Below are positions 31,021-51,060 of a DNA stretch of 64,000 nt, piece after piece. The stretch lies in the NCBI RefSeq assembly GCF_009914755.1, contig NC_060929.1. The stretch is one strand, 5' to 3'. The position numbers were made by a program, and so were the translations under genes. This DNA is from the human T2T-CHM13v2.0 reference genome, Homo sapiens. How positions within the stretch are numbered: the first letter of the stretch is position 1; every line of letters begins with the position of its first letter. The notes beneath the pieces were generated by a model, which was not told where the DNA came from, searched no databases, and worked only from the letters and a program-made list of their open reading frames with translations.

Positions 31021-31218
31021 CTTTTTTTGAGTCTTTTATTAGTTTATCAGAGATGTACATATGTAGGGAAGTACAAGTGATATTTTCATACATGTATACA
31101 ATGAGTAATGATTAAATCAGGGTAATTGGGATATCCATCATCTCAAACTTTGTTCTTTTCTTCGTATTGCGAACATTAAGATTCTCTTCTATTTTGAAAT
31201 ATACAATAAATAATTGTT
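31021..31218 (-). mobile_element. L1MA4/5-like 3' end, left piece (host of the chimeric insertion)
   Basis: 'catgtatacaatgagtaatgattaaatcagggtaattgggatatccatcatctcaaac...tttgaaatatacaataaataattgtt' continues seamlessly at 37683. Confidence 0.85.
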
Positions 31219-31431
31219 TTTTATTATTATTATACTTTAAGTTCCATGTACATGTGCACAACGTGCAGGTTTGTTATATATGTATACACGTGCCATGTTG
31301 GTGTGCTTCACCCATTAACTCATCATTTACATTAGGTATATCTCCTAATGCTATCCCTCCCCCCACTCCCCAGCCCACGACAGGCCCCAGTGTGTGGTGT
31401 TCATCACCCTGTGTCCAAGTGTTCTCATTGT

Positions 31432-35258
<3,827 letters not shown>

Positions 35259-35321
35259 TATGATGTTAGCTGGTTATTTTGCTCATTAGTTGAGGCAGTT
35301 TCTTCCTAGTAGCGATGGTCT

Positions 35322-36347
35322 TTACAATTTGGGATGTTTTTGCAGTGGCTGGTACTGGTTGTTCCTTTCCATGTTTAGTGCTTCCTTCAGGAGCTCTTGT
35401 AAGGCAGGCCTGGGGGTGACAAAATCTGTCAGCATTTGCTTGTTTGTAAAGGATTTTATTTCTCCTTCACTTATGAAGCTTAGTTTTGCTGGATATGAAA
35501 TTCTGGGTTGAAAATTATTTTCTTTAAGAATGTTGAATATTGGCCCCCACTCTCTTCTGGCTTGTAGAGTTTCTGCCGAGAGATCTGCTGTTAGTGTGAT
35601 GGGCTTCCCTTTGTGGGTAACCCAACCTTTCTCTCTAGCTGCCCTTAACATTTTTTCCTTCATTTCAACTTTGGTGAATCTGACAATTATGTGTCTTGGA
35701 GTTGCTCTTCTCCAGGAGTATCTTTGTGGCATTCTCTGTATTTCCTAAATTTGAATGTTAGCCTGCCTTGGTAGGTTGGGGAAGTTCTCCTGGATTATAT
35801 CCTGCAGAGTGTTTTCCAACTTGGTTCCATTCTCCCCATCACTTTCAGGTACACCAATCAGACATAGATTTGGTCTTTTCACATAGTCCCATATTTCTTG
35901 GAGGCTTTGTTCATTTCTTTTTAGTCTTTTTTCTCTAAACTTCTCTTCTCACCTCCTTTCATTCATTTGATCTTCAATCACTGATACCCTTTCTTCCAGT
36001 TGATCAAATCAGCTACTGAAGCTTGTGCATGCATTACGTAGTTCTTGTGCCATGGTTTTCAGCTCCATCGGGTCATTTAAGGTCTTCTCTATGCCGTTTA
36101 TTCTAGTTAACCATTCGTCCAATCTTTTTTCAAAGTTCTTAGCTTCTTTGTGATTGTTTCGAAGATCCTCCTTTATCTCGGAGAAGTTTGTTATTACTGA
36201 TCTTCTGAAGCCTTCTTCTCTCAACTTGTCAAAGTCATTCTCCTTCCAGCTTTGTTCCATTGCTGGCAAGGAGCTCCATTCCTTTGGAAGAGAAGAGGCA
36301 CTCTGATTTTTAGAATTTTCAGTTTTTCTGATCTGGTTTCTCCCCAT
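35322..36347 (-). pseudogene. L1 ORF1p remnant
   Basis: Fragments MGRNQIRKTENSKNQSASS... and ...RATPRHIIVRFTKVEMKEKMLRAAREKG...LNMERNNQYQPLQKH, broken by stop/frameshift. Confidence 0.95.
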
Positions 36348-37384
36348 CTTTGTGGTTTTATCTACCTTTGGTCTTTGATGATGGTGACGTACAGATGGGA
36401 TTTTGGTGTGGATGTCCTTTCTGCTTGTTAGTTTACCTTCTAACAGTCAGGACCCTCAGCTGCAGGTCTGTTGGAGTTTGCTGGAGGCCCACTCCAGACC
36501 CTGTTTGCCTGGGTGTCACCATCGGAGGCTGCAGAACTGCAAATATTGCAGAAGAGCAAATGTTGCTCCCTGATCAATCCTCTGGAAGCTTCGTCTCAGA
36601 GGGGCACCTGGCCTTATGAGGTGTCAGTCAGCCCCTACTGGGAGGTGCCTCCCAGTTAGGCTACTCGGAATTCAGGGACCCACTTAAGGAGGCAGTCTGT
36701 TGGTTCTCAGATCTCATACTCCATGCTGGGAGAATCACTACTCTCTTCAAAGCTGTCAGATAGGGACATTTAAGTCTGCAGAAGTTTCTGCTGCCTTTTG
36801 TTCAGCTATGCCCTGCCCCCAGAGGTGGAGTCTACAGAGGCAGGCAGGCCTCCTTGAGCTGTTCTGGGCTCCATCCAGTTCGAGCTTCTAGGCTGCTTTG
36901 TTTACCTACTCAAGCCTCAGCAATGGTGAGCGTCCCTCCCCCAGCCTTGCTGCCACCTTGCAGTTCGATCTCAGGCTGCTGTGCTGGCAGTGAGCAAGGC
37001 CCCATGAGCATAGGACCCTCTGAGCCAGGTGTGGGATATAATCTCCTGGTGTGCCATTTGCTAAGACCATTGGAAAAGCAGAGTATTAGGGTGGGAGTAA
37101 CCCGATTTTCCAGGTGCTGTCTCTCATGGCTTCCCTTGGCTAGGAAAGGAAATTCCCCGACCCCTTGCACTTCCCGGGTGAGGCCATGTCTCGCTCTGCT
37201 TCAGCTCATGGTCCGTGGGCTGCACCCACTGTCCTGCACCCACTGTCTGACAAGTCCCAGTGAGATGAACCCAGTACCTCAGTTGGAAATGCAGAAATCA
37301 CCCGTCTTCTGCATGACTCACGCTGGGAGCTGTAGACTGGAGCTGTTCCTATTCGGCCATCTTGGAACCTCCCTGAACTTGATG

Positions 37385-37666
37385 TTTGTGCAAACTACTA
37401 GTACTGGAATGCCCAAGTTATGTGTAAGTGTATCCGCACCCAGAGGTAAAACTACACTGTCATCTTTGTCTTCTTGTGATGCAGTATTTCTTCTCAGGGG
37501 AGAAGCCAGGAAGTCTTCTCCTGGCTGTACATATTCTTGGAAGTCTCTAATCACCAGCAGTAGCATGTTCTTCCCCACAGGGAGCTTGGAGCACGAGCGG
37601 CTGGAGACCTCGCTGAGGATGCAGGACCAAAGGTTCTGCCCATCCTCGACATCTCCTGCCGCAGCC
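37385..37666 (-). pseudogene. DYNC1LI1: Processed (intronless) fragment of cytoplasmic dynein 1 light intermediate chain 1 mRNA with internal exon-skip, fused to the L1 5' end
   Basis: Translation AAAGDVEDGQNLWSCILSEVSSRSCSKLPVGKNMLLL|VIRDFQEYVQPGEDFLASPLRRNTASQEDKDDSVVLPLGADTLTHNLGIPVLVVCT matches recalled LIC1 residues ~37-73 and ~190-245. The symbol given is the parent gene. Confidence 0.95.
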
Positions 37667-37682
37667 ACAATAAATAATTGTT
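37667..37682. repeat. 16-bp target-site duplication (right copy; left copy 31203-31218)
   Basis: ACAATAAATAATTGTT is identical at both ends; the empty site reads TGTT/AA, close to the L1 endonuclease consensus TTTT/AA. Confidence 0.95.
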
Positions 37683-48309: not shown

Positions 48310-51060
48310 CCTTCTGACAATGACATAGATGCTTCTATGAGACCAAGCCTCCTGCATGCACAACGGCTGTAAATTCTGGATAAAATGAGAAACCCAAACA
48401 CTCACCTGAAGCTACTAGAAAATGAACAAAGCACAGAATCTAGTGGATATTCTGCACTTGAATGAAAGGAACGACACTTCATGAGTCCTGGCCTTTGGCC
48501 TGAAAGCAGGCCACAATTGGCACCATGGAGAACAATACAAACCTACAGTTTTAGTGGCTTGAGAAACCAGAGGGCAGAATTTGGGGTAAACAGAGCAGCT
48601 GGAGCGTAAGAGGAAAAACACAGAAAGAACGAAGCCAGTGAGGTATTAACGTTATCTACTGTTAAATAAAAAATACAGCCAAAACTTATTTAAAAAGAAC
48701 AACCATCATATTTCTTCCTTCACAATTCTGGGAGTTGCCTGGGCATTACTAGGCAACTCTCTCAAGGTTCTCTCATGGGGTTGCCATTATATGGTGGCTG
48801 GAGCTGCTGTCATCTCAAAGACTGTCACTCATGGAACTTGATGTTAACTGTTGATTGATATCTCAAATGGGGCTGCTTTCCAGAAGGCAGTCTCAGAGCA
48901 TGCGGTTTGCTCCAATAAGAAGCATTCTAAGAAATAGTACATGGAAACTGTATTACTTTTTACCACCTACTTTCAAAAGTTATACAGCATCACTTCCACA
49001 TGAGTCACAGGCCTGTCCAGATTTAAGGGGAAGGAATATAGACCACTGCCTGTTGATGAGCAAGTTTCTGCATCACCTCGTAAAAAGCATATGTAGGGTG
49101 GTGGTGTGGTAGGTAGAAAAATATACCCCCGTGAAATGTGATAATCCCTGGAGCCCTGGAACCTGTGAATATGTAAACTTCCATAGCAAAAGAACTTTGC
49201 AGATGTGATTAAGACTAAGTTCCTTAAGATGGGAGATTATTCTGAATTATCCAAGTAAACCCAAACTAATCACATGTGTCCTTAAAGGTGAAATGCCCTT
49301 CCTAACTAAGATCAGAGATAGATGTAACTATAGAAGTATAGCAGAGGGTCAGGAAGGTGCAGCAGTGCTGGCTTTGAAGATGGAGAAAGGAAACCACAGT
49401 GAAGGAATGTTGGCAGCCTCTATAAACAAACAAACTAACTAACTAAAACTAACTAACTAACTAAAACACATAGGATATTTTATTTTGCCACAGAGGTATA
49501 GCCTCTGGATATGGATTCTGTGTAAATTATAGCTAACCCCTAAGCTATGCATGCATTGAGCAGACAATGAACAGCCTAGCTAAGAATAAAATAATTGAAG
49601 AGACATTCCACCTCCTGCCCATCTGAGGGATACAGAGTTTACAGTTTAAGTCCAGTCAAAGTAACTTTCTACGAAAGAAAATAAATAGATACTTTTCAGA
49701 GGAACAAAGGAAAATCAAGGATCTCTGCTTAATGTCATTTACAAAATTGGGAATGCAAGTCAAATTTAATAGACATGTAAACAAAAGAGAATTTGGCCCC
49801 TATTAACAGAAAATGTTCTGAATGTAAATTAATTATGAGATGATTCAGATGTAGAATTAGCAAACAAGTATTTTAAAGAGGCTATTATACACATTGTCAT
49901 AATTAATGACTGTAAAGAAAGCCTCAGCAGAGAAATAAAAACAGAAAAATATCAAATGAAAATTATAGAACACAATATATTCTGTAAAGTAAATCTATGG
50001 AGTTATATACAGATTGAACCTAACAGAAAACAGGTCATTAAATTTGAAAATGGGCCAACAAACATCATCATATATGTAGAACAGCAACAAAATGAAAAAA
50101 GTTAACAGTGTCAATAACTTTTAAATCAATATCAAAAGGTTTAATAACAGTATAATTGGAGTAAAGTACCAGAACTAAAAGATAAGGGGATAAAAAAAAA
50201 ATATTTGAAGACAGATGGACAAAAGTCTTCTAAACTTAGGGGAATACTTTAAAGATTCAAGAAACTCATCAAGGTCTAAGCAGATAAATACAGAGAAAAT
50301 GTCATCTAGCAAAATCATAGTCAAATTGATGGAAACCAAAAATAAAGAGAAAATCTTGAAACACAGAGAAAGCAGCATATCATATTCAGCAGGTCCAGGA
50401 TGCAAGTTACATTTGTCGTATCTGTAGAAACAGTGAGAAACAGTATCACTGAGAATACTCTGTAGAGCAAAAACATCCAGCAATAATGAAAGTCAAATGA
50501 AGATATTTTTTGATAAAATAAAACTAACAAGATGTGTTGCCATAAGAGATACACTAACAGAAACAACCAAAAAAACTGTTCAGACTGAAAAGAAATGACA
50601 CCAGATGAAAACTCAAATCTTTAGAAACAAAAATGATCACCATATATGATAAATCTATGAATAAATACAAAAATAGACTATTCTCTTTATAGTTTCTTTA
50701 AAGCACATACAACTGTTTAATACAAAAGGAATAACAATAACAACTCATAAAATAGTTTTGTGCAGTTGTGTATGTAAATGTAATGCATATGACAACTACA
50801 GGATAAAGTAAGGAAAGAGGGGGATAAACAAATCTTTTAGTTGCAAGGTTCTTAAATTTTCTGTGAACTGCTTTAATAGTAACTGCATTGTAAATTGTAG
50901 AAGTTAAATTGTAGATTGCAATCTTTAGAGCAATACCTAAAGAAATTATGCAGAGTTATAGTGCAAACACTATACATTAAAATGGAGTTTTAAAAATGTA
51001 TATTTAACCCGAAAGAAAGTAGTAGAAGAGTAAAAAGGAATTAAAATAGAAAAGGCAACA
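48310..51060 (+). mobile_element. Second old L1 (L1ME-type) 5'/ORF1 remnant with MaLR insertions
   Basis: 'atcatagtcaaattgatggaaaccaaaaataaagagaaaatcttgaaa' (ORF1-like IIVKLMETKNKEKILK). Confidence 0.65.
49105..49425 (+). mobile_element. MLT1D-like LTR (partial), followed by (AACT)n
   Basis: 'ccctggaacctgtgaatatgt...actttgcagatgtgattaag...ttaagatgggagattattctgaattatcc...gctggctttgaagatggag'. Confidence 0.8.

What the first reader, a model, noticed from the sequence alone, without database searches (positions are those of the whole stretch)
37365..37400. 11-nt linker at the cDNA/L1 junction discriminates spliced 5' transduction from template switching
Seen (minus strand): ...GTTTGCACAAA|CATCAAGTTCA|GGGAGGTTCCAAGATGG. 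The linker (37374-37384) does not match what I recall of L1 or of the next DYNC1LI1 codons (K-C-D-A). The cDNA ends within one base of what I recall as the exon 5 end (...ACAAAG). Model A: a source L1 in or downstream of DYNC1LI1 was reached by splicing from exon 5 to a cryptic acceptor about 10 nt upstream of the L1, giving a host-promoter-driven fusion transcript. Model B: RT finished the L1 RNA, including a short source flank (AAACATCAAGTTCA looks like an A-initiated TSD), then jumped to DYNC1LI1 mRNA via AAA microhomology. Either way the linker tags the source element.
Basis: partly seen in the sequence, partly recalled or inferred. Interest (0 to 1): 0.7.

Follow-up and report, generated by a model that had tools for sequence, protein, structure and literature searches.

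The report
Host exons spliced onto lost LINE-1
Three spliced pieces of the dynein gene DYNC1LI1 sit joined to a full-length LINE-1 jumping gene in one insertion, and the short linker between them nearly matches a spot inside that gene where the parent LINE-1 likely once sat, so the hybrid likely arose by ordinary splicing.

Summary
One insertion (15-nt target duplication) carries DYNC1LI1 exon 1 tail, exon 2 and exon 5, then 11 foreign bases, then a full-length L1PA5-like element. The linker is not L1 sequence, and no other L1 in this genome has it upstream. Read as exon 5 with its last G changed to C plus 10 bases, it has one AG-preceded match with one mismatch in 59.5 kb around the parent gene: intron 5, sense, 1,507 nt after the exon 5 donor. 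That spot took two Alu insertions, and a cut at its endonuclease-like motif gives a 15-nt duplication ending exactly at the linker end. No L1 is there now. Best reading (about 0.7): cis-splicing into an intronic L1 that was later lost. Against: two substitutions are needed, the match alone has chance 0.01-0.02 (intron) to 0.05-0.15 (downstream 29.5 kb), and a rival exact 12-nt match lies 11 kb from the insertion. The class is published (17 mRNA/L1 chimeras, PMC13174262); this locus is not in that table. A published chimera without a known source (FHIP1A) shows the same empty-site anatomy, which bears on the cis versus trans-splicing question.

The parts
37668..37682 (-). 5' copy of the 15-nt target-site duplication; the cut reads TT/AACA, one base off the L1 endonuclease motif TT/AAAA
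37628..37667 (-). last ~40 nt of DYNC1LI1 exon 1 (5'-truncated; the start codon is not included)
37554..37627 (-). DYNC1LI1 exon 2, 74 nt, 4 substitutions
37385..37553 (-). DYNC1LI1 exon 5, bases 1-169 of 170, joined directly and in frame to exon 2 (exons 3 and 4 skipped), 4 substitutions
37384..37384 (-). C at the place of the last exon 5 base (G in the parent): a substitution under the splice model, the first linker base otherwise
37374..37383 (-). 10-nt linker; 9 of 10 bases match the sequence after an AG in DYNC1LI1 intron 5 (G000:C3:32536470); read as the 3' part of the lost source L1's 5' target duplication
   Evidence: match shown; origin inferred
31219..37373 (-). full-length (6,155 nt) L1, L1PA5-like 5' end, ORF1 and ORF2 broken into fragments, short A-rich tail, no 3' transduction
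   Evidence: 5' end as in the L1PA5 case of Table S5
31204..31218 (-). 3' copy of the target-site duplication

Best explanation
This is one retrotransposed insertion of spliced DYNC1LI1 exons 1, 2 and 5 joined to a full-length L1, likely copied from a single fusion RNA in which the exon 5 donor was likely spliced to an AG inside the target duplication of an L1 that likely sat in intron 5 and was later lost. Shown: the single insertion, the exon joins, the end at the exon 5 boundary, the 9-of-10 AG-preceded match in intron 5, two Alu insertions at that spot, and no L1 there today. Inferred: a sense L1PA5-like element inserted at that spot with a 15-nt duplication; the DYNC1LI1 promoter transcribed through it; splicing left 10 bases of the duplication in front of the L1; the fusion RNA was reverse transcribed into chr5 and 5'-truncated in exon 1; the source allele never fixed; one G>C and one T/G change came later.
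For: Only AG-preceded match with <=1 mismatch in 59.5 kb, both strands, and it lies in the very next intron, sense, 1,507 nt after the donor. Chance 0.006-0.023 for intron 5, 0.003-0.008 with an endonuclease-like cut giving a 12-18 nt duplication. Two tandem Alus share duplications at this spot; both upstream copies read TT/AATA at the position that gives 15 nt. The cDNA stops in register at the donor. C<->G changes are 2 of the 3 non-CpG substitutions in exons 2 and 5 of this copy. The same AG is followed 51 nt on by the only GTAAGT of the intron, in frame and without a stop (16 of 239 AGs in the intron have one 30-200 nt on). Positive control: at the surviving RAP1GDS1 source L1, 12 of the 15 linker bases are the target duplication and the AG lies directly before the linker. 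Second case: the 13-nt FHIP1A piece follows TT/AG in the parent intron, a 15-nt stretch from an endonuclease-type cut, with no L1 there.
Against: Two substitutions in 11 bases are needed; measured rates are about 0.7-0.85% for G>C at a G and 0.8% for T>G. No L1 remnant in intron 5 and no second daughter copy. Over the whole 29.5 kb that the prediction allowed, the match has chance 0.05-0.15, 0.013-0.054 with the cut site. In today's sequence the hexamer before this AG is two bases off TT/AAAA (Alu tail repeat); the one-mismatch reading rests on the upstream duplication copies. The acceptor has an A-rich, not pyrimidine-rich, upstream stretch. An exact 12-nt rival match lies at window 48834-48845. 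The cut-site and donor features were noticed after the match. Intron 5 is 3.9 kb, against a median of 48 kb in the published set.
Confidence: 0.72

Rival explanations
1. The exon 5 end was joined in trans (trans-splicing, RNA ligation, or a reverse-transcriptase jump onto a free 5' exon) to an L1 RNA from another locus that carried a short upstream flank; the intron 5 match is chance.
For: Explains the end at the exon boundary. Law and Burns favour trans-splicing because 15 of 17 parent genes lack a source L1. ORF2p makes template-jump and non-templated products in vitro. Loss of the last G needs no later mutation under a jump.
Against: No L1 in this genome has the linker upstream within 3 mismatches. 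Leaves the AG-preceded match at a cut site in the next intron to chance (0.003-0.05).
Confidence: 0.13
2. One reading: reverse transcriptase finished an L1 RNA with a short source flank or added untemplated bases, then switched to mature DYNC1LI1 mRNA through AA/AAA microhomology.
For: Needs no substitution at the junction. Four of 17 published chimeras carry 2-12 unmapped bases at this junction. L1 duplications often start with A runs (flanks).
Against: The stop one base from a donor is then chance (roughly 1 in 100-200 mRNA positions; my estimate with recalled exon number and mRNA length), on top of the intron 5 match. No source flank found.
Confidence: 0.08
3. The linker was copied from local DNA 11 kb from the target (window 48834-48845) during a double jump: L1 RNA, local template, DYNC1LI1 mRNA.
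For: Exact 12-nt match covering 10 linker bases and 2 cDNA bases; the uncovered A can be L1 5'-end variation (9 of 27 copies); no substitution needed.
Against: Chance of a >=12-nt match is 0.02-0.05 within 12 kb and 0.05-0.10 in the window; nothing matches within 2 kb. Needs three jumps and leaves the exon-end stop and the intron 5 match unexplained.
Confidence: 0.07

Closest known systems
mRNA/LINE-1 5'-transduction chimeras of Law and Burns 2026 (PMC13174262; 17 cases, e.g. MAP3K13-L1PA5, FHIT-L1PA4)
   Same: Spliced host exons in sense in front of a near full-length L1, one target duplication, endonuclease-type cut, end at or beside a donor, no source L1 in the parent gene today.
   Different: Not in Table S5 (no chr5 row, no DYNC1LI1). 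Includes an internal exon after skipping two, is 5'-truncated inside exon 1, the next intron is short (3.9 kb), and an empty source site can be proposed.
RAP1GDS1-L1PA2 promoter co-option (PMC13174262, section 14)
   Same: Exon donor spliced to a cryptic acceptor a few bases (15 there, 10 here) upstream of an intronic sense L1; linker made of target-duplication sequence.
   Different: There the source survives, made several daughters and has RNA support; here the source is absent, there is one daughter, and the L1 keeps its own 5' UTR.
8q21.11 source L1 with spliced 5' transductions (PMC12350158, passages read)
   Same: Upstream promoter and exon spliced to a full-length source L1 and retrotransposed.
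   Different: Living, polymorphic events from a known source and a non-coding gene; this one is old and the source is gone.
U6/L1-type chimeras (PMC4476161, search listing only; mechanism recalled)
   Same: Cellular RNA copy 5' of an L1 inside one target duplication.
   Different: Partner here is spliced mRNA ending at an exon boundary and the L1 is full length; U6 chimeras often have 5'-truncated L1.

Membership tests
mRNA/LINE-1 5'-transduction chimera | One target-site duplication around both parts | tested here: met
   15 nt
mRNA/LINE-1 5'-transduction chimera | L1 endonuclease-type cut and A-rich tail | tested here: met
   TT/AACA; short A-rich tail before the 3' copy
mRNA/LINE-1 5'-transduction chimera | Spliced host exons in sense to the L1 | tested here: met
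   exon 1-2-5 joins
mRNA/LINE-1 5'-transduction chimera | Near full-length L1 | tested here: met
   6,155 nt from the common 5' start
mRNA/LINE-1 5'-transduction chimera | Host part ends at a splice donor | tested here: inconclusive
   in register, last base differs (G>C)
mRNA/LINE-1 5'-transduction chimera | Both parts arrive together across primate genomes | not testable with these tools
   no relatives held for this genome
cis-spliced transduction from an intronic source (RAP1GDS1 type) | Linker maps behind an AG, sense, downstream of the donor | tested here: met
   9 of 10 bases, intron 5
cis-spliced transduction from an intronic source (RAP1GDS1 type) | Source L1 present at that site | tested here: not met
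   no L1 match in the 10 kb holding intron 5; so it is filed as working like this type, not as a proven member
cis-spliced transduction from an intronic source (RAP1GDS1 type) | Fusion RNA observed | not testable with these tools
   no RNA data; source absent from this genome
template-switch chimera | Junction at an arbitrary mRNA position with microhomology to a found second template | tested here: inconclusive
   junction sits at an exon end; no source flank found; local 12-nt match at chance level

The most novel reading that the evidence does not exclude
Short linkers in mRNA/L1 chimeras are the target duplications of vanished intronic source L1s: the duplication itself supplies the AG acceptor, so the linker maps the empty site of an extinct, never-fixed L1 allele. 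DYNC1LI1 intron 5 and FHIP1A intron 1 are two such sites, and many chimeras put down to trans-splicing would be cis-spliced products of lost sources.
Probability: 0.5. Interest if true: 0.6.

Novelty: new member of a known kind. Interest (0 to 1): 0.42.

Why it matters
The published catalogue leaves open whether mRNA/L1 chimeras without a source L1 in the parent gene came from trans-splicing or from lost alleles. A linker that maps to an endonuclease-cut empty site in the next intron is a direct way to decide case by case, and would record an L1 allele that lived long enough to be driven by a host promoter and make a daughter, then disappeared. The locus itself is a dead pseudogene-L1 insertion with no sign of function.

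Tried and rejected
Surviving source L1 with the linker upstream: four genome-wide patterns gave only the locus itself as a close match; the 10 other rows carry 3 mismatches, and one search gave 27 hits against 21 for the reversed control. Linker as L1 consensus: rejected. Linker inside this L1 or within 2 kb of the target: nothing at <=1 mismatch. Full 11-mer in the parent gene, sense: none at <=1 mismatch. Other DYNC1LI1 retrocopies for comparison: none for this stretch. Sequence beyond 29.5 kb downstream of the donor was not read base by base, so a better empty-site match further on is not excluded; an L1-bearing one is. Literature: no paper held DYNC1LI1P1, DYNC1LI1 + pseudogene + LINE-1 or DYNC1LI1 + retrocopy; cryptic exon and exon skipping searches gave only unrelated listings; the empty-site idea was not found. 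Most subscription papers are not searched, and file mmc7 of PMC13174262 could not be read.

Full report
Observation. The longest sequence shared by the two ends is 16 nt, 37682-37667 and 31218-31203; I take 15 nt as the duplication because the last base also fits the cDNA. So cDNA, linker and a 6,155-nt L1 came in as one event. The cut reads TT/AACA and the tail is short and A-rich with no 3' transduction. The L1 reading frames are broken.

The cDNA. It maps to three places in DYNC1LI1 on chr3. The order of PF05783 matches shows two exons between the second and third piece, so it is exon 1 tail, exon 2, exon 5. The exon 2-5 join is exact and in frame; a 120-codon frame runs through it and the linker and stops inside the L1 5' UTR. 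I recall an annotated 407-residue isoform that lacks exons 3 and 4; no call confirms this (one search found nothing). The copy begins about 105 nt after the likely start codon. Exon 5 matches in register for 169 bases with 4 substitutions; base 170 is C where the parent has G before the donor.

The linker is not L1. A 40-nt 5' pattern found 28 copies. The 27 others have unrelated flanks; the first two upstream bases are mostly G or A, so the last linker A could belong to the L1. Their identity to this copy over the aligned 5' region is 86-90% for the long matches. The 5' start equals that of the L1PA5 case in Table S5 of PMC13174262; the subfamily was not typed against consensus sequences.

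No surviving source. Patterns for linker plus L1 start, with up to 3 mismatches and a gap of 0-8 or 0-14 bases, returned only this locus as a close match. The 59.5 kb around DYNC1LI1 holds no young L1, only a 65% fragment and a 61-nt piece.

An empty site in intron 5. In 59.5 kb, both strands, one site has at most one mismatch: sense, G000:C3:32536470, 1,507 nt after the exon 5 donor. Chance for such a match is 0.006 (shuffled linkers), 0.011 (random) and 0.017 (real 11-mers), up to 0.023 with both registers, in the 3,922-nt intron; 0.05-0.15 in the 29,477 nt downstream; 0.19-0.29 in the whole region. The site lies at the end of two tandem Alus (AluY-like by recalled features) whose duplications repeat the bases around this AG twice upstream, so L1 endonuclease has cut here at least twice. 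Both upstream copies read TT/AATA at the position that makes a 15-nt duplication ending on the last linker base; in today's third copy the hexamer is two bases off, inside the Alu tail repeat. Duplications in the published set are 9-17 nt. 29 of 237 AGs in the intron have such a cut with at most one mismatch; the joint chance is 0.003-0.008 in the intron and 0.013-0.054 downstream. The same AG has the intron's only GTAAGT 51 nt on, in frame and without a stop. These last features were noticed after the match and count for less than the match.

Cost of the model. It needs G>C at the exon end and a T/G difference in the linker. This L1 differs from the majority of 20 relatives at 50 of 1,197 non-CpG columns, G>C at 2 of 301 G columns; relatives average 0.85% for G>C and 0.8% for T>G (7 of the 27 copies were left out for internal deletions or short matches; mixed subfamilies may inflate the rates). 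In exons 2 and 5, 2 of 3 non-CpG changes are C<->G. Any change at the last base is therefore a 1-5% event, which is as likely as or likelier than a random switch landing one base from a donor.

A rival match. An exact 12-mer spanning 2 cDNA and 10 linker bases occurs at window 48834-48845, same strand, 11 kb from the insertion. The fixed 12-mer is expected 0.01 times per shuffle, but any match of 12 or more has chance 0.02-0.05 within 12 kb and 0.05-0.10 in the window. It explains neither the exon-end stop nor the intron site. It shows how little 10-12 bases can prove alone.

Controls on published cases. Law and Burns (PMC13174262; I read the abstract, sections 13, 14, 20, 49, passages, Table S5 with long cells cut, and searched six supplements) list 17 mRNA/L1 chimeras; six end at donors, four have short unmapped junction bases, 15 parent loci lack a source, and the authors favour trans-splicing while naming a lost allele as possible. 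In RAP1GDS1 the source survives with an acceptor 15 bp upstream. I fetched its ends: 12 of the 15 linker bases recur at the 3' end, so the linker is mostly the target duplication, with the AG just before it and a pyrimidine tract upstream. In FHIP1A the authors map a 13-nt piece to intron 1 and read it as ending at a donor. The one chr4 hit among 6 genome-wide has TT/AG directly before the piece, a 15-nt stretch from an endonuclease-type cut, and no L1 within 1.5 kb. It lies 27.7 kb after the exon 1 end found; the paper's hg38 distance is 28.5 kb, a difference I did not resolve. I tested only these 2 of the 17 cases, chosen because they had mapped linkers. 16 of 26 ordinary copies have an AG 5-20 nt upstream of the L1 start, 8 of 26 a YAG, so such acceptors are common raw material.

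Verdict. The insertion is a new member of a published class; DYNC1LI1 and chr5 are absent from Table S5 and three searches found no paper on it. Cis-splicing to a lost intron 5 L1 is the best account (0.72). A join in trans at the exon end (0.13), a microhomology switch (0.08; ORF2p does jump templates in vitro, PMC10830420, passages) and local templating (0.07) remain. Spliced 5' transduction from a living source is described at 8q21.11 (PMC12350158, passages). Primate orthologues, not held here, would decide.

Noticed in passing
L008, G000:C3:32536470-32536420 (minus): Possible 51-nt cryptic exon in DYNC1LI1 intron 5: AG acceptor, 17 codons in frame without a stop, then the intron's only GTAAGT. 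Use in RNA is unknown.
   Followed up: partly
L008, G000:C3:32537126-32536470 (minus): Two tandem sense Alus inserted at one target with shared duplications, and an antisense Alu 250 nt upstream.
   Followed up: partly
L079:1498-1520 (G000:C4:154761019): The 13-nt FHIP1A piece that the paper reads as ending at a donor follows TT/AG and fits the duplication of a lost L1 as well.
   Followed up: partly
window 48834-48845 (minus): Exact 12-nt match to the junction inside an old LTR-like stretch (MaLR/MLT1-like by recall, not tested).
   Followed up: yes
L053 (G000:C2:169789754): One of the 27 comparison L1 copies is the published MAP3K13 chimera: its flank equals the exon end in Table S5.
   Followed up: no
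window 37318-37680 (minus): The pseudogene part keeps an open 120-codon frame, but lacks the start codon; no evidence of use.
   Followed up: partly
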